From NCBI RefSeq assembly GCF_055900595.2, contig NZ_CM148325.1: 64,000 nt of DNA; one strand, 5' to 3'. Positions within the stretch are counted from its first letter, which is position 1, and each line of letters opens with the position of its first letter. Below are positions 5,411-14,717 of the stretch, one piece after another. A model generated the notes under the pieces. That model was given only the letters and a program-made list of their open reading frames with translations, had not been told where the DNA came from and searched no databases. The translations under genes were made by a program, and so were the position numbers.

Positions 5411-5779
5411 ATGATTCTGGCTGACGATTTTCTGGAGTACCTGAACAACACCGAGCGCGACCTGTACGCGCGCGTTCTCACCCGTTACGAGAAATACAAA
5501 CTTTCACTGCCAGAGCATCAACTCCGCGAAGGCGATATCGACATTGAAGGGCGCTACATCGTCAGGCGCCGCATAGCGGGCTACGGCATCTGGCGTGTCA
5601 CCGGACTTGAGCATTCATTGCTGACCATCTGCCAGAGTCCGTCCGGCGTGATAACGGAGATCGTCGCCGATAGTCTGCGACTCACCCATCACAGCGCCAC
5701 CCCGGAAGAAACGCTGGCAGAAACCCAGCGTCTGTGTCGCGTCATTGCCAACGCCGCCCTCCGCGCAGACAGGAGGTAA
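5411..5779 (+). CDS. Hypothetical early protein (122 aa)
   Basis: GGGAGG SD; immediately precedes gpA. Confidence 0.5.
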   Translation: MILADDFLEYLNNTERDLYARVLTRYEKYKLSLPEHQLREGDIDIEGRYIVRRRIAGYGIWRVTGLEHSLLTICQSPSGVITEIVADSLRLTHHSATPEETLAETQRLCRVIANAALRADRR

Positions 5780-5782
5780 GCG

Positions 5783-8272
5783 ATGGAGTTCGTCAGAGAC
5801 TGGCAAAAACCGCGCCCCGCTATCGGGCGCGAAGGCTTACCCGTACCTGAAACCGCACTGGATACCATCCTGAAGTGTTACCGCGCAGACGAAGAGCGCG
5901 CACTGCACGCTGAAGAGCAGGGTCATCCGCTTGCGGGCACAACCATCGGTAACGCGATCGACAAGTGGGAAGGCGCACAGGAGCGCCAGGAAGAGGCCAT
6001 CACGCTCACACAGGAAGCGAGAAGACACCCGCCCACCCTTATTGAGGAAACCCTCAAAGAGCTGGACACCCTGCCCAAGTGGTTGAGGCTGCCGCTGATT
6101 AAGCACCTGAACTTTTTAAGGCGCAAACAGGAGGACGAACAACAGAAAGGCAAGCGCGGCAAGGACACCCGCAAATATGAGCGCTTCCTGAAAAACGGCA
6201 TCCCCGCACGTCTTCGCCGTATTCGTGAGATTAACGCTCGCTTTGCACCGTTAAGTTTTCAGGCCGCTGCCATGCGCGAGAGTCTGGAAGAACTGATCAC
6301 ACTGCCGAACCTGAGCCGTGAACGCATCCAGAAAATAGCCGTACTGCTTGCCAGCGCCGTTAAAATGCATCTTGCCGACGCAATGGACAAGGCCCGCGAA
6401 ATAACAGGGAACGACAAAGACGACAACCTGAACAACTGGCTGATTGCCTACCAGTATATTGGTCGCCGTGTCCTGAAGCTGGGGATCACCCCACCATACT
6501 GGAGCGCCCTTGAACTCCGCCCCGACCGCAGAAGCCCCCCGGACGTGACACTGGTTCCGGGCGCTGTTTTGCGCCTGAACGACGCCGAATGGTGGAATAA
6601 AAAACTTCGCCAGATGCACGACGTCTGGCGTGAGGAACTTTTACGTGCAGCGGGCCTTGTATCCCGCCAGACCTCCGTTTATGTGAGCCGTGAAGCGCTG
6701 GCAGACTTCCGCGAAAAACAGGCCCGTACCCGCGATTTTCTCAAAGCGCACGACGTGGAGAACGAAGACGGCGAACGCATCAGTCTGGAAGATATCTACT
6801 ACGCCAGTACATCCAACCCGCATAACCGCCGCAACGAGATGATGGCGTGCGTTAAGGGAATGGAGCTTATCGCACAGGAACGCGGCGACGTGGCCTTCTT
6901 CGTCACGGTCACAGCCCCGTCTCGTTTTCACAGCGTCACCGACGCAGGCACGCTGAACCCGAAATACAAAGGCGCAACCGTAAAGGACGCCAGCGACTAT
7001 CTGGTTTATAACTTCTTCGCCTCCGCCCGCAAACTCATCAAAAAAGAGAAGCGGGGCTGGTACGGCATTCGCACCGTGGAGCCTCACCACGACGGCACGC
7101 CCCACTGGCACATGCTGGTATTCACAAGCCCTGAGAACGAAGAGCGCATCACGGAAATCATGTGCAATGCCGCCATTCGCGAAGACCGGGCAGAGCTGGG
7201 CGACGACATCACCCCGCGCTTCAAGTGCGAGAAGATAGATCCCGAAAAAGGCACGCCAACCAGCTACATCGCCACCTACATAGGCAAAGGCATTGACGCC
7301 GCTGCATTCGGCGACACGGATCCAAAAACAGGTAAACCGCCCGTTGACCACGAAAGCGGAAAACCTATGGCGGACACCGTGGAAAACGCCGTCGCCTGGG
7401 CGCGCCTGCATCGCATTCGCCAGTTCCAGTTCTTTGGCCTCCCTTCCCGTCAGGTGTGGCGTGAGTTCCGCCGCCTTGCCGGACAAATGGCACGCAACCC
7501 GAAGGGGCCGCAGGCACTGACCAACCCCAAAGCCGACGCCCTCCTTGTTGCAGCCGATACGGGGTGTTTTGCCAGCTACATCATGCATCAGGGCGGTGTG
7601 CTCATTCCCCGTAGTGAATATCTGGCCCGCACAGCCTACGTCACCGCAGAAGAGCCGAACAATTACAGCGAATTCCCCGAGCGCATTTACGGTATCCGCA
7701 TGCCGGAACTGGGGGAGGACTTCACGTTATGCACCCACCCGGAAGAGTGGAAAATCGTCAGAAAGGAACCGGAACCAGACAACCGCACGGGCGAGGGTTT
7801 TGACCTTCAGGGCGGCCCCGCCGCCCCTTGGACTCGTGGCAATAACTGTCACCCTGACGAAAAAACAACCAACAACAGCACACAAACAGAACAGTCAGAG
7901 TGGGCAAAACTGCCCCCCTTACCCCCATCGTCGGACGGTTTTGTGAGCTGGTTTAAGTCGCTTAAGAGGCCGGACAGGAAAAAACTACAAAGATTGCTCA
8001 AAAAACGCACCGAAGAGAGTCGCCAGAACGCCAGCGGCGGCACCGACACACCCACCGACACCATTAACCTGGGCGTTGTGCTGCCGGAACTGCCGGAAAT
8101 CGTGCAAGTCCGCCGCGATCTGGAAGCGCTGGGCGCGGACTTCCCCGAAGCAATGGCCCATTCCGTCTTTATGGGTGCCCGCGTTCGTCTGGGTGACGGT
8201 CGCACCGTTCACCGCGACGAGCAGACCGGGCGCATCACCGTCACCAGTCTGCAACCGGAGGCGAAACCATGA
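5783..8272 (+). CDS. A: Rolling-circle replication initiator endonuclease, P2 gpA family (829 aa)
   Basis: HUH-type metal motif EPHHDGTPHWHMLVF and tyrosine motif TSYIATYIGK. Same position and size class as P2 A. Confidence 0.9.
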   Translation: MEFVRDWQKPRPAIGREGLPVPETALDTILKCYRADEERALHAEEQGHPLAGTTIGNAIDKWEGAQERQEEAITLTQEARRHPPTLIEETLKELDTLPKWLRLPLIKHLNFLRRKQEDEQQKGKRGKDTRKYERFLKNGIPARLRRIREINARFAPLSFQAAAMRESLEELITLPNLSRERIQKIAVLLASAVKMHLADAMDKAREITGNDKDDNLNNWLIAYQYIGRRVLKLGITPPYWSALELRPDRRSPPDVTLVPGAVLRLNDAEWWNKKLRQMHDVWREELLRAAGLVSRQTSVYVSREALADFREKQARTRDFLKAHDVENEDGERISLEDIYYASTSNPHNRRNEMMACVKGMELIAQERGDVAFFVTVTAPSRFHSVTDAGTLNPKYKGATVKDASDYLVYNFFASARKLIKKEKRGWYGIRTVEPHHDGTPHWHMLVFTSPENEERITEIMCNAAIREDRAELGDDITPRFKCEKIDPEKGTPTSYIATYIGKGIDAAAFGDTDPKTGKPPVDHESGKPMADTVENAVAWARLHRIRQFQFFGLPSRQVWREFRRLAGQMARNPKGPQALTNPKADALLVAADTGCFASYIMHQGGVLIPRSEYLARTAYVTAEEPNNYSEFPERIYGIRMPELGEDFTLCTHPEEWKIVRKEPEPDNRTGEGFDLQGGPAAPWTRGNNCHPDEKTTNNSTQTEQSEWAKLPPLPPSSDGFVSWFKSLKRPDRKKLQRLLKKRTEESRQNASGGTDTPTDTINLGVVLPELPEIVQVRRDLEALGADFPEAMAHSVFMGARVRLGDGRTVHRDEQTGRITVTSLQPEAKP

Positions 8273-8679
8273 ACCGTTATCATTGTGTACTGCCGCGCCA
8301 CTACTTCGGTCAGATTATGCGCTCGCGTATTCCGGCGGTCACGCTGCGAAACCTGAGCACGGTACCGCAGCCGGGCGATGAGCTGGAAATCGCCGTAGCA
8401 GGCCCTGACCGTTCAGCCAGCTGCGTGACCGCCGACGTGCTGAACGCCGTGCCCGTAGGTGGTGACTGGCTGGTTGCCATCCGCTTCCGCCAAGACCCGT
8501 TCGCACCTGAACCGCTCACCCCCGCAGGCCGCATCATGCAGAACTGGCGGGATGAACGCGCGAAGGCGAACTGCGAAAAACTGATTAACAGGATTGCCAC
8601 GACAAACCGACATGCCGCGCTGGCGCGCCGGATATACCCCGCAAAATCAACACAACCAACAGGAGTAAAAGGCCCATGA
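8269..8679 (+). CDS. Hypothetical protein (136 aa), possibly with an ASCH/DUF3850-like PUA fold
   Basis: ATGA overlap with the A stop. The N-terminus HCVLPRHYFGQIMRSRIPAVTLRN....PGDELEI resembles the ASCH-type pattern. This is a weak, by-eye call. Confidence 0.45.
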   Translation: MNRYHCVLPRHYFGQIMRSRIPAVTLRNLSTVPQPGDELEIAVAGPDRSASCVTADVLNAVPVGGDWLVAIRFRQDPFAPEPLTPAGRIMQNWRDERAKANCEKLINRIATTNRHAALARRIYPAKSTQPTGVKGP

Positions 8680-8822
8680 AAAGAATCGCCGGAACTGACT
8701 ACCAGGAGCTGCTTAAAGCGGTGGAAAACTACCGTTCAGCGCTGGTGTGGTGTGAGATTAAGCCCTGTGACCCGGGAGCAGTTAAGGATTGCAACCGGCG
8801 CGTGAGGACATTCAGCGCGTAA
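8676..8822 (+). CDS. Small hypothetical protein (48 aa, MKRIAGTDYQELLKAVENYRSALVWCEIKPC...)
   Basis: ATGA overlap with the upstream ORF. Below the track cut-off. Confidence 0.35.
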   Translation: MKRIAGTDYQELLKAVENYRSALVWCEIKPCDPGAVKDCNRRVRTFSA

Positions 8823-8937
8823 TTGGCTACCGCTATGTAGCAGCCATTATTGACCTTGTGAATGAACTGGAGGAAGCAAAAGAGCGCATCGCAGAACTGG
8901 AAACCCAGAATAACCCCAACCAGCAGGAGCAGAAGCC

Positions 8938-9519
8938 ATGAAAAAAAGAGACCTTAAAAAACACCTCCGTAGTCAGATTGAATATTTTGAAGATAAGGCT
9001 GCAAAAACAGGGCTTTCCGGTAAAGAGAACATGAACTTCAGGGCACACCTCCTGACGTGGAGAATACTTAATATCACGAGAGATGGACTTGAGCCGCTAG
9101 CCTACCTGATGGAAGATGGCGAGACCCTCATACAGGATCCCAATGTGGAAATGGAGAAGAAAGAGATGGACCTGCCGATAATCGGGCTGTTTGAGATCCC
9201 TGAACTAATAGGACGTTATGAACACGAAAACCGCCAGCTTGCCGCCTTTTTATCCGTGACAATCGAACGACTGGAAACCGTGAAACACGATATTCCGTTC
9301 GGTTTTGATGAGCGCACCGAGGGTGATTTGCTCAGCTTTCAGATTGCCCTGAACGTGCTCACCGCAGAGCCTTCTGCGTGGCTACGCCCGGAACGGCACC
9401 ACAACACGTTCGCATTTACCGTAATTCCCTACGATGCCGCACAGGAAGAGGATAACTTCGAGACCAGGCTTGTTCCCCTGTATCAGATTGCGGATTTCTA
9501 TACGTTGATTCGCTGGTAA
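8938..9519 (+). CDS. Hypothetical cargo protein (193 aa), no recognisable domain
   Basis: AGGAG SD, visibly AT-rich codon usage compared with its neighbours, and a strong terminator after it. Confidence 0.55.
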   Translation: MKKRDLKKHLRSQIEYFEDKAAKTGLSGKENMNFRAHLLTWRILNITRDGLEPLAYLMEDGETLIQDPNVEMEKKEMDLPIIGLFEIPELIGRYEHENRQLAAFLSVTIERLETVKHDIPFGFDERTEGDLLSFQIALNVLTAEPSAWLRPERHHNTFAFTVIPYDAAQEEDNFETRLVPLYQIADFYTLIRW

Positions 9520-9534
9520 TCCCCCACAGTAAAA

Positions 9535-9557
9535 CAGCCCGACCGGGCTGTTTTTTT
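9535..9557 (+). terminator. Intrinsic terminator
   Basis: CAGCCC-GACC-GGGCTG followed by TTTTTTT. Confidence 0.7.
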
Positions 9558-9614
9558 ATCTGATATTTTTGATAACGTTGACCGGCTCATTAGCAAAAAA
9601 GCAAAGAGGAAAAC

Positions 9615-10001
9615 ATGAAAGCCCGTATCGGGATCATCCCGGAAAAAGCCCTGCGCCAGCACCTGATTGATATTGCCAGAGGGAAGCGAAAACCACAGCC
9701 CGACGAGCCAAAGGTATGGTTTTCATCCATCAATGCGGCAGGCCAGACGCTGAGCAATGAAAATATCGCCCTTCTGCGTCTTATGAATGAGGAGAAGCCG
9801 CAGACCATGACCGCACTTGCGGAGTTATCCGGCAGAAAACTGAGCAACCTGTCTGTAACCCTGAAAATGCTGAGCAGCTACGGTTTTGTCAGTCTGGAAA
9901 AGAAAGGGAATACTGTACACCCGAAAGCACTTTTTACCGATTTTGAAATCATCGTTGATCCGTCCGTGGGTTCAGTACATCGCGCCACCGCCCGGCCCTG
10001 A
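9615..10001 (+). CDS. Winged-HTH (MarR/ArsR-like) DNA-binding protein (128 aa)
   Basis: AAGAGG SD. The segment NIALLRLMNEEKPQTMTALAELSGRKLSNLSVTLKMLSSYGFVSLEKKGN is a typical wHTH. It is a single-gene unit between two terminators. Confidence 0.55.
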   Translation: MKARIGIIPEKALRQHLIDIARGKRKPQPDEPKVWFSSINAAGQTLSNENIALLRLMNEEKPQTMTALAELSGRKLSNLSVTLKMLSSYGFVSLEKKGNTVHPKALFTDFEIIVDPSVGSVHRATARP

Positions 10002-10013
10002 AGTGCGCAATAA

Positions 10014-10040
10014 ACAGCCCCGTTCGGGGCTGTTATTTAT
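10014..10040. terminator. Bidirectional hairpin terminator between convergent genes
   Basis: ACAGCCCC-GTTC-GGGGCTGT with T-rich flanks on both strands. Confidence 0.6.
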
Positions 10041-10411
10041 TCCAGAATCAGCTGTTCAGGTGTGCAGCCGTACAGTCTGGCAAGGCGCTCAATATTTGCC
10101 CTGCGCGGGCGTTCTGTTCTTTCGAATTCGGACACGGTAGCCTGCCTGATACCCAGCGCATCCGCCACCTGCTTTTGCGTCATTCCGCGATAGATTCGCC
10201 ACGCCGCCTGCATGGTGCAGCCACGTTCCGAGAGGATGTTGACCACCTCGTTGGGATACAGCGTATCAGGCGATGCACTCGGTTCGTTCTGGACGTCCTC
10301 GTAGAGTTCGTCAAGGTCGCTGTCTCCTGCCAGTTTTTCAAACAACGCCACTGGCAGAATGACGGATACCCTGTTACCCGCACCGTCAGTAATAAACTGA
10401 ATCTGACTCAT
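10037..10411 (-). CDS. Antitoxin: N-terminal Phd/YefM-like segment plus C-terminal Xre-type HTH (124 aa)
   Basis: The C-terminal MTQKQVADALGIRQATVSEFERTERPRRANIERLARLYG is an Xre HTH. It lies downstream of a RelE/ParE toxin gene (HigBA-like order). AGGAGGGG SD. Confidence 0.75.
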   Translation of the reverse strand: MSQIQFITDGAGNRVSVILPVALFEKLAGDSDLDELYEDVQNEPSASPDTLYPNEVVNILSERGCTMQAAWRIYRGMTQKQVADALGIRQATVSEFERTERPRRANIERLARLYGCTPEQLILE

Positions 10412-10451
10412 TTGCCCCTCCTGCTAAACATCGGTTTATTTTTTAATTTGC

Positions 10452-10484
10452 TGCCGGTGATAAAAAACGGCGGGTCGCCCCGCC
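10452..10484 (-). terminator. Strong intrinsic terminator between the toxin and antitoxin genes
   Basis: On the minus strand, directly after the toxin stop: GGCGGG-GCGA-CCCGCC followed by GTTTTTT. Confidence 0.6.
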
Positions 10485-10751
10485 TTAGTATGTTGTCGAG
10501 GTTCTCCGCTGAATACGGAGGATCCTGATAACCACTATCTGCCCTCCCTCAATCGTGAACCTGACACGGTAATGATTTACCCTGAGTCTGTACTCCCCGC
10601 CCGAGTCAGTGAGCTTTTTAATATCCAGATTCTGGAACTTCGGATAGCCATAAAGCGCGTTAACTTTCTCGCGTAAGGATTTCTGATCCCTCGCTGGCAA
10701 AACCCGTAAATCTTTGATTGCCCGAGGGGTCCACATGATTTCAGTCGTCAT
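10485..10751 (-). CDS. RelE/ParE-family toxin (88 aa from the ATG at 10751; the track start at 10757 is GTG)
   Basis: The sequence ..WTPRAIKDLRVLPARDQKSLREKVNAL...YRLRVNHYRVRFTIEGGQIVVIRILRIQRR has the typical RelE/ParE fold signature (YR.RVG.YR..F...). Confidence 0.8.
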   Translation of the reverse strand: MTTEIMWTPRAIKDLRVLPARDQKSLREKVNALYGYPKFQNLDIKKLTDSGGEYRLRVNHYRVRFTIEGGQIVVIRILRIQRRTSTTY

Positions 10752-10802
10752 AAACACACCGGAAGCAAATTATTAAAGAGCCGTGCCCGCTGGCACACCT
10801 TA

Positions 10803-10846
10803 AATATAGGTTTTAACCCCTATATTGTCAAACAAAATCCCTATAT
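10803..10846 (-). promoter_or_regulatory. Sigma70 promoter of the TA unit, overlapped by a palindromic operator
   Basis: On the minus strand, TTGACA (10831-10826), a 17-nt spacer and TATATT (10808-10803). The inverted repeat AATATAGG (10803-10810) / CCTATATT (10819-10826) and a third half-site CCTATAT (10840-10846) overlap the promoter. Confidence 0.55.
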
Positions 10847-10859
10847 CATGAAGTAAAAA

Positions 10860-11140
10860 AGCACCTCCCGCGACCTCCCTTTCCGGTGCACGAAAGTGCA
10901 CAAATTTGCACAATTTTTTTGAACGACTTTTTGCCCTTCCGGCCCGTGTGGCGTCTGGATCCGTCGGGGATCCGTGCGTGCACGAAAAAAGGCCTTTTTC
11001 TGCGCGCAGGTGACGGGGGAACAGCCCGCGTTTCAGGGGGTAAATAGCATTCCCTGAACGATGTTGCAGTGACACAACAGAATGGCTGTATTTCTCACGC
11101 TGAGCGTGAAAAAGACGTAAGGGCTTTTGATTTGATGGGG
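10860..11140. other. Probable cos / packaging-recognition region (non-coding, repeat-rich)
   Basis: It sits in the non-coding gap of about 580 bp between the TA unit and orf167, in the region where P2 has cos. It holds four GTGCAC/TGCAC motifs (10886, 10896, 10907, 10978), two of them as GTGCACGAAA. It also has the palindrome CTGCGCGCAG (11000-11009) and the G-rich 19-mer GGTGACGGGGGAACAGCCC (11009-11027), which matches about 12/19 of the remembered P2 cos end GGCGAGGCGGGGAAAGCAC. An alternative GGCGA-starting 19-mer lies at 11886-11904. Confidence 0.3.
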
Positions 11141-11340
11141 TGAAAGATAAGGCCGTCAAAATCGCACTGAGGCAGCGAGAATATGTCGTCAGAGTTGCGG
11201 GGTTGCGTAAGCATCCGCCCGGCGATGATGGCTACAGGGCTGGAGATGTTGTGAAATTATCTGAAGGAATAACCAGCTTGCAGGAGAACCCGGGCAAAGT
11301 CAGAATAGCGGCAGGCATCAACTCAAAAGAGGATAATGTC

Positions 11341-11844
11341 ATGAGCCACTTTAATGATTTATGCCAGATCAATCGTGAAGCTGAAGAAAAACGCGCTGAG
11401 GCAGCTCAAATTTTGCGGGATGAAGCGGCAAGGCTGATTGATTTCTATGAAGAATGGCTGGGGCTTCCATCCATGTACTGGGAAGACGATGATGGCGACC
11501 TGCACCGCTACGTGGAGACAGGCTTGCCATGTAAGACAGCGGCGGATTTTAGTCCTCTTTCAGTCCACAATATCGCATCTGCACCAGACAATATTTTCCG
11601 CATGGCCGTACGAACCTGGGTTAAGTCATCTGACAGCAGCTACCCGGTAAGCGTGGTTATTGCACTTGAATTATATTCAGTAGATGCGGAACGGGTGTCT
11701 CTGAGAGTCCGGGTGGAAGACGATATTTCTGTTCGCGTATTTATCAATAAACCCAGCGAAGAAGCCTGGGGCGATGTTGTTATGCACATGAAAAAGCACA
11801 TCGCTAATCACCTGAAAAAGCGAGCGCCATCAGCACTTCGTTAA
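11341..11844 (+). CDS. Hypothetical cargo protein (167 aa); the GTG-extended 234-aa track ORF was rejected
   Basis: AAGAGGA SD 6 nt before the ATG at 11341. No domain recognised. An 11-bp hairpin lies downstream (11859-11884). Confidence 0.5.
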   Translation: MSHFNDLCQINREAEEKRAEAAQILRDEAARLIDFYEEWLGLPSMYWEDDDGDLHRYVETGLPCKTAADFSPLSVHNIASAPDNIFRMAVRTWVKSSDSSYPVSVVIALELYSVDAERVSLRVRVEDDISVRVFINKPSEEAWGDVVMHMKKHIANHLKKRAPSALR

Positions 11845-11910
11845 GCAGAGCTGGAGAGTCGGGGCATAAATTTTTTATGCCCCGGCGAAGCAGCAGACAA
11901 GCGAAGCGCG

Positions 11911-12966
11911 TCAGGATATGGGCCGGGTGTCTAACAGTGCGTAAGGGTTAAAACGGATCACCTCTTCGCCCAGCCAGTCGTTGACGTGTTTCATTGCTTC
12001 CATGACGGGCATCAGTTCGTTAATGGCAAACACACGGGCTGCCTTCTCCACATCCCCGAATGACCCCTTCTCACCCGGCATGGCCCCCATCAGCTGAGGT
12101 GGCACGCGGTGCACAGCCAGCACGTCATCACGCGATGCGGCCTTGACGTTCATGAACTCATCCTTTGCGGTGATTTGCTGAAACGGCAAAATCTGTACGC
12201 CATCCTTACCACCTCCCGCCGCGTGGATGAGCAGATTTTTAAACGCCCCGCCACCACGCGCGCTTTGCAGTGTTTCCCGCAGTTTTTCCATGCTTTCACG
12301 GTCAACCTGCGCCGCACCGATGTAGACAATACAGCCCGCGTGTGAGCCGTTATCGTAGTAGAGCTTGCGGAAGATATCGGCGGAATGTGACAGGCTGGCA
12401 GACAGCAGGCCGCCCAGGTAATCCGGCATCCCGTAAATCTCCTGGTTGATATCAGGATTCATCAGGTGGCATATCGTCCCCTCACGAAAGCGGTACTCTT
12501 CCTGTCCTTCCTGTATATACCACCATGATTTCATATCGCTGCCACGTCGCATGTATTTCGCCAGCGCCCGGCGCAGGGCCAGCGGTTCGCCAAGCATGTT
12601 GCGCCGCAGCTCAAGACAGGCATTACCGAACACAAACCAGTCCATCGCCACCCCGGCGAACTCCTGGCGGGACAGCAGAGGATGTGGAATATAGCAGCCC
12701 AGCAGCACATTACGTTTGAAGCTGAGCGCCGACTGGTGCCAGGACGTCTGGCGGGCAGCCCGTGCCAGTCCGTACCAGTCAACGGGCGTTTCAAACCACC
12801 GCCCGTTGTCGGCGCAGTACATGCTGTCCAGCAGGTCGGCCCCTGACAGCCGGTAAGGTCCTTCAAACGTGAAGGCACTCAGTGTCGGGTCGCTTCGCAG
12901 GGAATCCGCAAGGCTGCCCTGCGCTGCGCGGGCGTTCGTACGTCGTTGTTTATTTTTTCTGCTCAT
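11911..12966 (-). CDS. Q: Portal protein, P2 gpQ-like
   Basis: Collinear by eye with remembered P2 Q (..FGNA.LE.....PDINQE.YG.P.YL......LFRRKYY.NG.HAG.I.Y...). Adjacent to terminase P. Confidence 0.9.
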   Translation of the reverse strand: MSRKNKQRRTNARAAQGSLADSLRSDPTLSAFTFEGPYRLSGADLLDSMYCADNGRWFETPVDWYGLARAARQTSWHQSALSFKRNVLLGCYIPHPLLSRQEFAGVAMDWFVFGNACLELRRNMLGEPLALRRALAKYMRRGSDMKSWWYIQEGQEEYRFREGTICHLMNPDINQEIYGMPDYLGGLLSASLSHSADIFRKLYYDNGSHAGCIVYIGAAQVDRESMEKLRETLQSARGGGAFKNLLIHAAGGGKDGVQILPFQQITAKDEFMNVKAASRDDVLAVHRVPPQLMGAMPGEKGSFGDVEKAARVFAINELMPVMEAMKHVNDWLGEEVIRFNPYALLDTRPIS

Positions 12967-14717
12967 CAGAACTCCGTAACACTGAAGGGGGCGGCATCAT
13001 GTTCACCGCCGACAGGTTCGTTGATAACGGCCAGCATGGTGGCCCATGCAAGATCGCCATGGCTTACGCCTCTTGCGCGATCTGTTTCGTAGGTGATAAA
13101 TCCGGCCTGCGTTTTTGTTTTGCGTACCGCGTTAAAGGCGCTCACCAGTTCGCGCTCGCTGCGGTCGTACTCCCACCGCCCGGCGCGCATGAGCTGCAGC
13201 ATCTTCAGAACCAGCGTGCGCTTTGATGACAGGGTGAAGGTGTAGGGAATGGCTGCCGGAAAAAAGCGCTTCACAATCTGATACACCGCATCCCCGTGAC
13301 CGCCGGTTACGTCAATACCGATATGCTCAACGTTATAGCGAAAGGTGAACTCTTCAATCACCTTCGCCTGCGCCTCAAACTCCAGCCCCTGCACCCGCCG
13401 CGTCTCCACGGTGCGAAAACGCCCGCCCGGTACGGCTGGCGGCACCACCACGACAACCGCCCCGCTGTCACCGTTCCCGCTACTGCCGTTGGCGTCGTAC
13501 CCAATCCACACAGGGCGGTTCCCCATCGGACGCGGTGCAAACGGCTTCCAGTCCGGCCACTCGTCGTATCCGTCAACACCGCAGCCAATCAGGATATTCA
13601 GGTTAAATGCCGATTCCCCTTCGCGAGCAAATTCACACATGTAGAGATTGCGGAACTCGTCTTCAGTGTTATTGCGCCGGATTTTGTCAATGTTGGTTAA
13701 CGTCCATCCCTGACTGACCACATCTTCCAGCGTCACAATTTGCCGCCAGATATAGTCAGGACAGATAAGGCCGTTATGAAGCGCATTCCAGCTCACATCA
13801 AAATGCTGACGTTTATGAGTACGAAGCCCTTCATTCCAGTGATCGCCGTTCCAGTATGCATACGCCTCATGTGTTTCACTTGATGGCGTGGAAAAATAGG
13901 TACACCGCAAACCATCCAGCGTTGCCATAGCAGCAGCCACCTTGCGCAGCTCTGCGAAACGCCCCGTCCAGAAAAACTCATCAAAATACAGATTCCCTGT
14001 GTACGCTTGCGCGGTGGCCGCAGAAGTGCCGAGAAAATGCAGCTCTGCACCGTTGGAGAGGATGACTTTATCGCCCCCTTTCAGTTCCACATCAACTTCA
14101 GATGCAGCCTTCTGAATAATGCTTTTAAACTGGAGCGCCTGACGACGAGACGCAGACAAAAAAATCTGGTTACGCTGGTAAGGTTGTGCCACATCGTCAC
14201 GCAGCGCCATCAGCAGCGCTTCCTGCGCAAAATACCAGGTCGCCCCAATCTGGCGGGATTTCAGGATCATCCTGTCAGTAATTCCGGCACGCTCACAGGC
14301 ACCGATAGCATCAAGCCATTTGCGCTGGTGTCCGGCCAGCCTGTCGGTAATTTTTTCCCGCAGCGCCGCGATCTGTTCCGGCGTGAAATGATTTTTGTGT
14401 TTTTTCGCCCGGCCTTTCTTTCCTGTTGCCGTCTCATCCGGCAGACCGTCATGCAGCTTTTTAAGCTGACGGGTCAGCAAATCAATTTCCTTAAAGTCCC
14501 CGCCTGTTTTATTCTGTTTTTCCGTGAGCTGAATGAGTCGCGCATCCATGGACTGCGTGACACGCTGAACCGGGGGCGTCTCATCCCACTGGTCGCGTTT
14601 TTTCCACGAATGGATCGTGTTCTGGTTGATACCCATAAGGCGGGAAATTTCCGCAACAGGGTAACCCTGCCAGTACAGCTGGCGTGCCCGCTGGCGAACA
14701 AATGTATCCTGAATCAT
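12966..14717 (-). CDS. P: Terminase large (ATPase) subunit, P2 gpP-like
   Basis: The N-terminus RARQLYWQGYPVAEISRLMGINQNTIHSWKKRDQWDE matches the remembered P2 P. Size and position also fit. Confidence 0.9.
   Translation of the reverse strand: MIQDTFVRQRARQLYWQGYPVAEISRLMGINQNTIHSWKKRDQWDETPPVQRVTQSMDARLIQLTEKQNKTGGDFKEIDLLTRQLKKLHDGLPDETATGKKGRAKKHKNHFTPEQIAALREKITDRLAGHQRKWLDAIGACERAGITDRMILKSRQIGATWYFAQEALLMALRDDVAQPYQRNQIFLSASRRQALQFKSIIQKAASEVDVELKGGDKVILSNGAELHFLGTSAATAQAYTGNLYFDEFFWTGRFAELRKVAAAMATLDGLRCTYFSTPSSETHEAYAYWNGDHWNEGLRTHKRQHFDVSWNALHNGLICPDYIWRQIVTLEDVVSQGWTLTNIDKIRRNNTEDEFRNLYMCEFAREGESAFNLNILIGCGVDGYDEWPDWKPFAPRPMGNRPVWIGYDANGSSGNGDSGAVVVVVPPAVPGGRFRTVETRRVQGLEFEAQAKVIEEFTFRYNVEHIGIDVTGGHGDAVYQIVKRFFPAAIPYTFTLSSKRTLVLKMLQLMRAGRWEYDRSERELVSAFNAVRKTKTQAGFITYETDRARGVSHGDLAWATMLAVINEPVGGEHDAAPFSVTEF

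What the first reader, a model, noticed from the sequence alone, without database searches (positions are those of the whole stretch)
9615..10001. Orphan winged-HTH regulator as a stand-alone cassette
This is a 128-aa MarR/ArsR-like wHTH protein with an N-terminal basic segment (RGKRKPQPDEPK). It is bracketed by two strong hairpin terminators (9535-9557 and 10014-10040) and has its own SD. It has no adjacent target gene on its strand. It could regulate the neighbouring orf193 or the TA unit. It could also be the antitoxin-like half of a split two-gene system with orf193.
Basis: inference. Interest (0 to 1): 0.35.

Follow-up and report, generated by a model that had tools for sequence, protein, structure and literature searches.

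The report
Orphaned TumA antitoxin in P2 prophage
The small DNA-binding gene is real, but it is the leftover antitoxin half of a known toxin-antitoxin pair (TumE-TumA) whose toxin gene and promoter were overwritten by unrelated phage cargo, which is an ordinary outcome of gene swapping in a known prophage hotspot.

Summary
The ORF at 9615-10001 is real. It encodes a 128-aa winged-HTH protein of Pfam family HVO_A0114 (PF25212, 60 bits), with a GAGG Shine-Dalgarno and strong hairpin terminators on both sides. It lies in the gpA-gpQ variable hotspot of a P2-like prophage.

It is not a stand-alone cassette. In sister E. coli prophages the same gene (93.5% nt identity) overlaps, by ATGA, the stop codon of a 124-aa TumE (DUF6516) toxin gene. 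The window still holds the last 21 tumE codons in frame (9553-9618).

The tumE promoter, a palindromic operator and codons 1-103 were replaced by orf88-orf193-terminator (about 8697-9552).

- In 80 species, 54 homologues have intact tumE directly upstream, 22 have a broken tumE, and 4 have none.
- All 36 viral loci found with TumE have the wHTH downstream.
- orf193 is not a partner: its rare homologues never have the wHTH nearby.
- The family's conserved operator (TGTTATGAT-N3-ATCATAACA) is absent from the whole window, so local regulation is unsupported.

Most likely this is an orphaned TumA-type antitoxin with no promoter of its own. At most it acts in trans on a TumE from another prophage, and one genome (GF60) carries both types. 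It is a new member of a known kind, of low to moderate interest.

The parts
9615..10001 (+). Intact CDS for a 128-aa HVO_A0114-family winged-HTH protein, the TumA-type antitoxin partner of TumE. Predicted layout: N-terminal strand plus helix (1-21), basic loop (22-33), wHTH (48-105), an extra strand carrying FTDFEI, then a variable tail.
   Evidence: dN/dS against paired alleles is 0.14-0.24.
9606..9609 (+). Shine-Dalgarno core GAGG for the wHTH gene. It lies inside the tumE remnant.
9553..9618 (+). Remnant of the tumE toxin gene: its last 21 codons plus the stop codon, in the tumE frame. The TGA at 9616-9618 overlaps the wHTH ATG. Window sequence FLSDIFDNVDRLISKKAKRKT* aligns with LLSDFFDNVDRLINEVTKGKA* in intact TumE.
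   Evidence: (81.8% nt identity over tumE nt 310-375)
9531..9557 (+). Intrinsic terminator (10-bp stem, GACC loop, 7 T) that ends the orf193 cassette. It abuts the right-hand junction of the replacement, so it separates the wHTH gene from all upstream transcription.
8697..9552 (+). Replacement segment of about 856 bp: orf88 (frameshifted in this window), orf193 (8938-9519) and their terminator. It occupies the place of about 428 bp in the sister prophage that hold the tumE promoter, the operator and tumE codons 1-103.
10013..10034 (.). Bidirectional intrinsic terminator between the wHTH gene and the convergent XRE-antitoxin gene. The same terminator follows tumA in the intact tumE-tumA prophage.

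Best explanation
The gene is the antitoxin half (TumA type, HVO_A0114-family wHTH) of a TumE-TumA type II toxin-antitoxin operon. That operon was cargo in the gpA-gpQ hotspot of a P2-like prophage.

What intact relatives look like (shown):
- One promoter drives tumE and then tumA, whose start overlaps the tumE stop as ATGA.
- The -10 element of that promoter lies inside a conserved palindrome, GTTATGA-N5-TCATAAC.

How intact relatives probably work (inferred): the wHTH dimer binds this palindrome to autorepress the operon. Its conserved N-terminal strand-helix and/or C-terminal strand neutralise TumE, which is a translation-inhibiting toxin.

What happened in this window (shown): an illegitimate recombination replaced the promoter, the operator and tumE codons 1-103 with an unrelated phage early-operon tail (orf88-orf193-terminator). 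What remains is 21 tumE codons, the Shine-Dalgarno and an intact wHTH ORF.

Current state (inferred): the gene has no toxin, no cognate operator and no recognisable promoter. It can be transcribed only by read-through of a strong terminator or from a cryptic start. It is most likely a toxin-less relic of cassette swapping with no local regulatory target. If it is made, the only plausible targets are a TumE toxin and a tumE operator supplied in trans by another P2-like prophage.
For: Identity
- PF25212 matches at 60 bits.
- NCBI annotates the identical protein as 'HVO_A0114 family putative DNA-binding protein'.

Ancestral operon
- The sister prophage TUM9803 has a 124-aa TumE gene whose stop overlaps the wHTH start, in the same gpA...RelE/XRE...portal context.
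- Its wHTH gene is 93.5% identical to the window's at nucleotide level. Over 9553-10100 the match is 92.7-92.8%.
- The last 21 tumE codons are retained in frame in the window.

Family-wide linkage
- 80 species were found by searching with the wHTH. Of these, 54 have intact tumE ending within a few bases of the wHTH start, 9 have a frameshifted or stopped tumE, 13 have deletion remnants and 4 have none.
- The wHTH ORF is full length in all 80.
- All 36 viral loci found by searching with TumE have the wHTH downstream.
- In E. coli complete genomes, all 13 tumE loci have the wHTH.

Upstream genes are TumE
- 26 of 52 match PF20126 on their own.
- The E. coli copy matches L022 by phmmer at 6e-55, and L022 matches PF20126 at 2e-8.

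TumE-TumA is a validated translation-targeting TA superfamily (PMC10584680).

Operator
- The palindrome is present 20-40 nt upstream of tumE in about 47 of 52 loci and overlaps the -10.
- It is absent from the window: best PWM score 9.9, against a training median of 26.8 and a shuffle maximum of 8.8+-2.6; the local best is -5.6.

No promoter is found between the terminator and the ATG.

An independent second case exists. In L133 another P2-like element has the tumE 5' part replaced by different cargo plus a hairpin, and keeps about 25 tumE codons and the wHTH.

Context from the literature
- Orphan antitoxins are common (PMC7192599).
- The gpA-gpQ region is a known swap hotspot that leaves small remnants (PMC9122126; PMC13586616).
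Against: - No experiment shows that the HVO_A0114-type partner neutralises TumE. The six validated TumA proteins are small, not annotated as HVO_A0114 proteins, and in the paper's main clusters the partner gene lies upstream of TumE.
- Binding of the wHTH to the palindrome is inferred, not shown.
- The ORF is intact in all three complete genomes that share the junction. It keeps all 29 family-invariant residues. Its dN/dS against paired alleles is 0.14-0.24. Its Shine-Dalgarno reads GAGG where the intact operon has GGGG. These points fit retained function as well as a young relic.
- Expression was not measured.
- The survey seeded with the wHTH is biased towards intact wHTH genes.
Confidence: 0.8

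Rival explanations
1. Selected trans-acting orphan antitoxin (anti-addiction or counter-defence). On this reading the phage keeps and expresses tumA without tumE. The product would neutralise TumE, and repress tumE-tumA promoters, of co-resident or resident P2-like prophages. Expression might come from read-through of the early operon during lytic growth.
For: - E. coli GF60 carries both the orphan-type prophage and a second prophage with intact tumE-tumA.
- L090 naturally pairs a window-type TumA N-terminal region with a TumE that is 99% identical to the TUM9803/GF60 toxin. Cross-neutralisation is therefore plausible.
- The ORF is intact, with dN/dS of 0.14-0.24.
- Two independent replacements (the window type and L133) both spared the Shine-Dalgarno and the wHTH.
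- Many other genera delete tumE but keep the promoter, the operator and a full-length wHTH.
- There is precedent for phage-borne orphan antitoxin-like counter-defence genes (bioRxiv 10.1101/2024.07.11.602962, abstract seen).
Against: - There is no promoter, and a strong terminator lies directly upstream.
- Co-residence is seen in only 1 of the 3 complete genomes with the orphan type.
- The low dN/dS may date from before the orphaning.
- Toxin loss with antitoxin retention is also the neutral expectation, because losing the antitoxin first is lethal.
Confidence: 0.2
2. Split or re-partnered two-gene system. orf193 would be a new toxin or effector whose antitoxin or regulator is the wHTH.
For: - The two genes are adjacent on the same strand.
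- In some lineages the wHTH family sits next to other toxin types, for example after a MazE/MazF-like pair in L150, L151 and L153.
- TA modules are known to exchange partners.
Against: - orf193 homologues (52% and 36% identity) end the early operon of other P2-like prophages directly before ogr and portal, with no wHTH. A third homologue lies in a lambdoid early-left region, also with no wHTH.
- A 10-bp-stem terminator and a 95-nt gap made of tumE remnant separate the two genes.
- orf193 is translationally coupled to the gpA operon by ATGA overlaps at 8269, 8676 and 8938, not to the wHTH.
- The same orf193 cassette is joined to two wHTH alleles that differ by 6.7%.
- The orf193 model is mostly helical, not the DUF6516 alpha+beta fold. 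BLASTP against TumE gives E=11.
Confidence: 0.03
3. Local transcription factor. The wHTH would regulate the neighbouring RelE/XRE toxin-antitoxin unit or orf193/orf234 by binding nearby promoter DNA.
For: - It is a DNA-binding fold.
- It is adjacent to the RelE/XRE unit in all E. coli P2-like prophages examined that have this arrangement.
Against: - No sequence resembling the family's operator exists in 8600-11200 (best PWM score -5.6) or anywhere in the window above shuffle level.
- The RelE/XRE unit carries its own HTH antitoxin and its own strong promoter at 10831-10803.
- tumE-tumA also occurs without the RelE/XRE unit, directly before ogr, in L092 and L093.
Confidence: 0.04

Closest known systems
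TumE-TumA toxin-antitoxin superfamily (Durairaj et al. 2023, Nature; PMC10584680; Pfam PF20126 TumE/DUF6516)
   Same: - Close alleles of this wHTH (92-96% amino-acid identity) are encoded in a two-gene operon with a DUF6516/TumE protein.
- NCBI names those neighbours 'toxin-antitoxin system TumE family protein'.
- The paper describes DUF6516 as neutralised by diverse, unrelated DNA-binding partners.
   Different: - The window has no tumE, only its last 21 codons.
- Gene order in this clade is toxin first. The paper reports DUF6516 mostly downstream of its partner in clusters 1, 2, 4 and 6.
- The six experimentally validated TumA proteins are much smaller 'hypothetical proteins', judged from synthetic fragments of 289-388 bp. 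The HVO_A0114-type partner itself is therefore untested.
Orphan (solitary) antitoxins left by TA decay, also discussed as 'anti-addiction' modules (for example the Klebsiella survey, PMC7192599)
   Same: - It is a short CDS more than 75% identical to the antitoxin of valid pairs, with the toxin side replaced and the non-toxin side conserved.
- That is the survey's definition and its commonest context class.
   Different: - The toxin was overwritten by foreign phage cargo within a prophage hotspot, rather than decaying in place.
- The antitoxin's promoter and operator went with the toxin.
P2 gpA-gpQ accessory hotspot (the old/tin position; PMC9122126, PMC13586616)
   Same: - The location is between the replication endonuclease (5783-8272) and the portal gene (11911-12966).
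- The pattern fits the reported rapid cassette swapping that leaves short remnants.
   Different: - TumE-TumA is not in PADLOC (no hit).
- It is not named as a hotspot system in PMC13586616, where the only 'TumE' text match is an author surname in the reference list. PMC9122126 was not searched for it.
- The PMC13586616 survey reports that defence pseudogenes are rare in these hotspots, whereas here half a system survives intact.
ArsR/SmtB and MarR winged-HTH repressors
   Same: - The wHTH core has the same fold. The top PDB matches are 6j05 ArsR, CzrA, SmtB and NolR.
- The family's probable DNA site is a palindrome, as expected for a dimeric repressor.
   Different: - Sequence scores are below the family cut-offs: MarR 18.2 against 24.6, ArsR/SmtB 23 against 55.
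- It has extra N-terminal strand-helix and C-terminal strand elements.
- No metal-sensing role is suggested by its genomic context.
Phage-encoded orphan antitoxin-like counter-defence genes (anti-DarTG1; bioRxiv 10.1101/2024.07.11.602962)
   Same: An antitoxin homologue carried by a phage without its toxin (abstract seen).
   Different: - That case is an enzymatic antitoxin in lytic T4-like phages with a demonstrated function.
- Here the gene is a DNA-binding antitoxin in a temperate prophage, with no evidence of expression or function.

Membership tests
Pfam PF25212 HVO_A0114 (putative DNA-binding wHTH family) | Profile match above the gathering threshold | tested here: met
   E=2e-16, 60 bits against a cut-off of 27.6; residues 30-105 cover profile positions 4-79 of 84. 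The identical protein is named this way by NCBI.
Pfam PF25212 HVO_A0114 (putative DNA-binding wHTH family) | Winged helix-turn-helix fold | tested here: met
   The AF2 model has pLDDT 79, with helices 48-60, 65-72 and 76-88 and a beta-wing at 92-105. Top PDB hits are ArsR/SmtB/MarR-type proteins, best E=4e-4.
TumE-TumA type II toxin-antitoxin system | Adjacent intact TumE (DUF6516, PF20126) toxin gene | tested here: not met
   Only the last 21 codons remain, at 9553-9618. A six-frame HMM search of the whole window finds no TumE. Sister prophages do meet this feature.
TumE-TumA type II toxin-antitoxin system | Two-gene operon under a shared, autoregulated promoter | tested here: not met
   The promoter and the palindromic operator of the sister locus (L002 5610-5667) fall inside the replaced segment. 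The operator PWM finds nothing in the window. No promoter lies upstream of the ATG.
TumE-TumA type II toxin-antitoxin system | The wHTH family is the consistent genomic partner of TumE | tested here: met
   Among 80 species, 54 have intact tumE and 22 have a disrupted tumE directly upstream. All 36 viral loci seeded with TumE have the wHTH. All 13 E. coli tumE loci have it.
TumE-TumA type II toxin-antitoxin system | Toxin toxicity, and neutralisation by this type of partner | not testable with these tools
   Toxicity and neutralisation were published for six TumE-TumA pairs that have different, smaller antitoxins. No data exist for the HVO_A0114-type partner.
Orphan antitoxin (operational definition of PMC7192599) | CDS of 50-150 aa, at least 75% identical to the antitoxin of a valid pair, with no toxin CDS beside it | tested here: met
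   The CDS is 128 aa. It is about 91-96% identical in amino acids to TumA proteins of intact pairs. The upstream CDS, orf193, is unrelated to TumE. The definition is quoted.
MarR family (PF01047) and ArsR/SmtB metalloregulators (NF033788) | Profile match above the curated cut-off | tested here: not met
   MarR scores 18.2 bits against 24.6. HTH_20 scores 18.5 against 27. ArsR/SmtB scores 23 against 55.
P2-like gpA-gpQ accessory hotspot cargo | Located between the replication endonuclease gpA and the portal gpQ of a P2-like prophage | tested here: met
   gpA is at 5783-8272. Portal is at 11911-12966 (-) and terminase at 12966-14717 (-). Annotations of near-identical prophages agree. The hotspot is defined in PMC9122126.

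The most novel reading that the evidence does not exclude
The orphan tumA would be kept by this P2-like phage as a trans-acting anti-TumE factor. It would be expressed by read-through from the early operon. Its product would neutralise the TumE toxin, and shut the tumE-tumA promoter, of rival or co-resident P2-like prophages. That would make it a phage counter-defence or anti-addiction gene derived from a DNA-binding antitoxin. The recurrent toxin-less loci in more than 20 species, which keep an intact wHTH (and about half of which also keep the operator), would reflect the same selection.
Probability: 0.15. Interest if true: 0.55.

Novelty: new member of a known kind. Interest (0 to 1): 0.25.

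Why it matters
For this window the result mainly corrects the annotation. The 'transcriptional regulator' is half of a TumE-TumA module, and orf193 is unrelated early-operon cargo.

Three by-products are useful to people working on toxin-antitoxin systems or P2 hotspots:

1. The HVO_A0114 wHTH family is the regular downstream partner of TumE in Gammaproteobacteria. This pairing has not been tested experimentally.
2. These operons share a conserved palindromic operator that overlaps the -10 element. This gives a direct EMSA target.
3. Loss of the toxin with retention of the antitoxin is frequent (26 of 80 species). In P2-like prophages it has happened at least twice by cargo replacement. This bears on how hotspot swapping creates incomplete systems, and on whether orphan antitoxins act in trans.

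None of this is surprising in kind.

Tried and rejected
- orf193 as a diverged TumE: rejected. There is no Pfam, NCBIfam or PADLOC hit. BLASTP against TumE gives E=11. The AF2 model is mostly helical (pLDDT 66).
- Function of orf193: led nowhere. Only 2 clusters were found among 5.8e9 proteins and 4 representatives among 1.84e9. There is no PDB fold match, best E=0.46.
- A promoter between 9555 and 9614: none found by the scan or by inspecting the TTGATA and TTGACC hexamers, which lack a usable -10.
- Operator-like sites in the window: the exact and degenerate pattern hits (11741, 29568, 41906; 23047, 32985, 41924) are at chance level. PWM scores are within the shuffle range.
- Megablast and tblastn against isolated phages: no match.
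- Rfam over 8000-12000: only a sub-threshold gyrA-RNA hit at 11852-11905.
- Direct Pfam or NCBIfam match of the E. coli TumE: none. Membership was established through homologues instead.
- PADLOC for TumE: no hit.
- Literature search for 'HVO_A0114': no papers.
- Dating the orphaning from dN/dS: not possible, because too few substitutions exist and the alleles are recombinant.

Full report
**1. Observation**

The ORF at 9615-10001 (+) starts with ATG and encodes 128 aa, with the basic stretch RGKRKPQPDEPK at residues 22-33. It matches Pfam PF25212 'HVO_A0114' at E=2e-16 (60 bits; cut-off 27.6).

It matches MarR, HTH_20, TrmB and ArsR/SmtB only below their cut-offs. An AlphaFold2 model built on 18 homologues (pLDDT 79) has five elements in order:
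- a strand (2-7) and helix (10-21);
- a loop that holds the basic stretch;
- a three-helix wHTH (48-88) with a beta-wing (92-105);
- a further strand (109-114, FTDFEI);
- a poorly defined tail.

The best PDB fold matches are ArsR, CzrA, SmtB, NolR and MarR-type repressors.

Both hairpins are real intrinsic-terminator-like structures:
- 9531-9554 followed by seven T, -15.2 kcal/mol, z=-4.6;
- 10013-10034, -17 kcal/mol, z=-4.7. This one also folds on the minus strand, so it is bidirectional.

A GAGG Shine-Dalgarno lies at 9606-9609. No sigma-70-like promoter is found between the first terminator and the ATG.

**2. Context**

The window carries a P2-like prophage. The gene order is:
- replication endonuclease gpA, 5783-8272;
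- orf136;
- a small ORF;
- orf193, 8938-9519;
- the wHTH gene;
- a convergent RelE/ParE toxin with an XRE-HTH antitoxin, 10037-10757 (-);
- orf234;
- portal, 11911-12966 (-), and terminase (-).

This order comes, and annotated near-identical prophages agree. The region is the gpA-gpQ accessory hotspot of P2-like phages, where P2 itself carries old and tin (PMC9122126).

**3. What the gene was part of**

Among 5,426 complete E. coli genomes, 15 carry this wHTH gene. Three have the window's arrangement with orf193. The others have a 'DUF6516 / toxin-antitoxin system TumE family protein' directly upstream.

In strain TUM9803 (L002) the 124-aa tumE gene (5689-6063) overlaps the wHTH start (6060) as ATGA. 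The prophage context is otherwise the same.

Alignment places the left breakpoint at window ~8696, seven codons into the small ORF after orf136. The right breakpoint is at ~9553, immediately after the terminator's T-run.

Window 9553-9618 is the 3' end of tumE, still in frame. It reads FLSDIFDNVDRLISKKAKRKT*, against LLSDFFDNVDRLINEVTKGKA* in intact TumE.

About 428 bp of the ancestral locus were therefore replaced by about 856 bp. The lost part held the tumE promoter, the operator and codons 1-103. The incoming part is orf88-orf193-terminator. The downstream terminator is the one that closes the tumE-tumA operon in TUM9803.

**4. Is the upstream gene of relatives really TumE, and is the linkage general?**

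I searched one genome per species for relatives of the wHTH and obtained 80 loci. The gene directly upstream was classified with a profile built from these loci:

| State of tumE upstream | Loci |
|---|---|
| Intact, ending within a few bases of the wHTH start | 54 |
| Frameshift or stop | 9 |
| Deletion remnant | 13 |
| No trace | 4 |

The wHTH ORF is full length in all 80.

Twenty-six of 52 upstream proteins match Pfam PF20126 'Toxin TumE' on their own. The E. coli copy falls below HMMER's filters. It is nevertheless linked to L022 by phmmer at 6e-55, and L022 matches PF20126 at 2e-8.

In the reverse direction, all 36 viral contigs found with TumE have the wHTH immediately downstream. All 13 E. 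coli tumE loci do as well. The asymmetry is what a toxin/antitoxin polarity predicts: the toxin is often broken, and no intact toxin lacks the wHTH. The wHTH-seeded sample is, however, biased towards intact wHTH genes.

TumE-TumA is a published, experimentally validated, translation-targeting TA superfamily with diverse antitoxins (PMC10584680). The six validated antitoxins are small proteins listed only as 'hypothetical protein', not as HVO_A0114 proteins. The antitoxin role of this wHTH type is therefore inferred from genomic context, not shown.

**5. Operator**

Upstream of tumE in TUM9803 there is a promoter, TTGAAT-16-TATGAT with an upstream TG. It is followed by the palindrome TTATGA-N5-TCATAA and an 11-nt inverted repeat that reaches the tumE start codon.

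The palindrome TGTTATGAT-N3-ATCATAACA lies 20-40 nt upstream of tumE in about 47 of 52 loci, from Escherichia to Vibrio, Marinobacter and Idiomarina. Its left half contains the -10 element. This is the probable autoregulatory operator, which is an inference.

A position weight matrix built from these sites scores the training sites at a median of 26.8. The best score anywhere in the 64-kb window is 9.9, within the range of shuffles (8.8+-2.6, maximum 15.2). The best score in 8600-11200 is -5.6.

The wHTH therefore has no cognate site near orf193, near its own start or near the RelE/XRE promoter. Most toxin-deleted loci in other genera keep the promoter and operator. The window does not.

**6. 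orf193 is not a partner**

orf193 belongs to a very rare family: two clusters among 5.8e9 proteins and four representatives among 1.84e9.
- Its 52% and 36% identical homologues are the last gene of the early operon in other P2-like prophages. They lie directly before ogr and portal, with no wHTH.
- A more distant homologue sits in a lambdoid early-left region, again with no wHTH.
- In the window, orf136, orf88 and orf193 are chained to gpA by ATGA overlaps and closed by the terminator.
- The same orf193 cassette and remnant are joined to a different wHTH allele in strain Br_112.
- The orf193 model is mostly helical and has no fold match.

**7. Present state and likely function**

The ORF is intact and retains all 29 family-invariant positions. 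It differs from paired alleles mostly at synonymous sites, with dN/dS of 0.14-0.24. That divergence may predate the loss of the toxin, and the alleles are recombinant.

With no promoter and a strong terminator directly upstream, expression would need read-through or a cryptic start.

I conclude that the gene is an orphaned TumA-type antitoxin left by cassette replacement. Most likely it is a relic without a local role.

The only plausible activity is in trans, on TumE and on tumE-tumA promoters of another P2-like prophage. Three findings keep that option open:
- Strain GF60 carries both an orphan-type and an intact tumE-tumA prophage.
- L090 pairs a window-type TumA N-terminus with a TumE 99% identical to the GF60/TUM9803 toxin.
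- A second, independent replacement in another P2-like element (L133) also spared the last ~25 tumE codons, the Shine-Dalgarno and the wHTH.

**8. Comparison with known systems, and novelty**

Orphan antitoxins are abundant in enterobacterial genomes and have been discussed as decay products or anti-addiction modules (PMC7192599). P2 hotspots swap cargo rapidly and leave small remnants (PMC13586616).

The finding is therefore a new member of a known kind. The modestly new points are:
- the regular TumE/HVO_A0114-wHTH pairing with the toxin gene first;
- the conserved operator;
- the frequency of toxin-less loci.

Interest is low to moderate (0.25).

Noticed in passing
window 8676-8941 (around 8805): The small ORF between orf136 and orf193 is split into 48-aa and 50-aa pieces by a 1-nt deletion in a G-run. 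In E. coli 23CRST011, GF60 and Br_112 it is an intact 88-aa CDS. This is either a real frameshift or a sequencing error.
   Followed up: partly
L002 5649-5669, and 20-40 nt upstream of tumE in L005-L082: A palindrome, TGTTATGAT-N3-ATCATAACA, overlaps the -10 element of the tumE-tumA promoter. It is conserved across many gammaproteobacterial genera and is the probable TumA operator. I could not find it described in the papers I searched.
   Followed up: yes
C-termini of P0003-P0122; window 9981-9998: Of 116 full-length homologues, 107 end in -AA or -VA after a variable tail. This looks like a C-terminal degradation tag, as expected for a labile antitoxin. The E. coli P2 128-aa clade, which includes the window and the toxin-paired TUM9803 allele, ends in -RATARP instead.
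   Followed up: partly
L004, L009, L030, L033, L036, L041, L049, L057, L058, L064, L070, L078 (about -80 to -260 from the wHTH start): In many genera tumE is reduced to a mini-ORF by internal deletion. The promoter, the operator, the Shine-Dalgarno and a full-length wHTH are kept. Toxin loss with retention of an expressed antitoxin is therefore recurrent.
   Followed up: yes
L133 1318-3378 (IMG/VR UViG_2757320580_000004): This is a second, independent orphaning in a P2-like element. The tumE 5' part is replaced by a 126-aa ORF with a ClpX-type zinc-binding motif (CSFCG...CNEC) followed by a hairpin. A Doc/Phd-like pair lies further upstream. The last ~25 tumE codons and the wHTH are kept.
   Followed up: partly
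L094 and L095 (E. coli GF60, 4.365 Mb and 3.197 Mb); L089; L090: GF60 is a double P2-like lysogen, with one orphan-type and one intact tumE-tumA prophage. Br_112 and metagenomic L090 carry wHTH alleles that are recombinants of the two types, with crossover points at the start of the gene or inside it.
   Followed up: yes
window 8938-9519; L003 8001-8576; L084 6001-6564; L088 6001-6567: orf193 belongs to a very rare phage early-gene family, with 4 representatives among 1.84e9 proteins. The family shares a conserved IPFGFDExTE...L...IAL..LT..P..W motif. There is no domain or fold match, and the function is unknown.
   Followed up: partly
L150 2400-3336 (also L151, L153): In some high-GC viral contigs a wHTH homologue follows a MazE-like and a MazF/PemK-like ORF instead of TumE. 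The wHTH family may therefore pair with other toxin types.
   Followed up: no
L079, L080, L083 (Vibrio mytili, Salinivibrio sharmensis, Vibrio sp. MEBiC08052): This is a divergent wHTH subgroup (41-47% identity) with no trace of TumE. The three share a different upstream region, which has no operator palindrome.
   Followed up: no
L018 3644-4378: In Serratia marcescens MSU97, TumE and the wHTH are read as one 245-codon ORF. This is either a frameshift fusion or an assembly error.
   Followed up: no
window 9531-9554 and 10013-10034: The two terminators flanking the wHTH gene share the core AACAGCCC...GGGCTGTT, although they have different origins. The first came in with the orf193 cassette. The second belongs to the tumE-tumA operon.
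   Followed up: no
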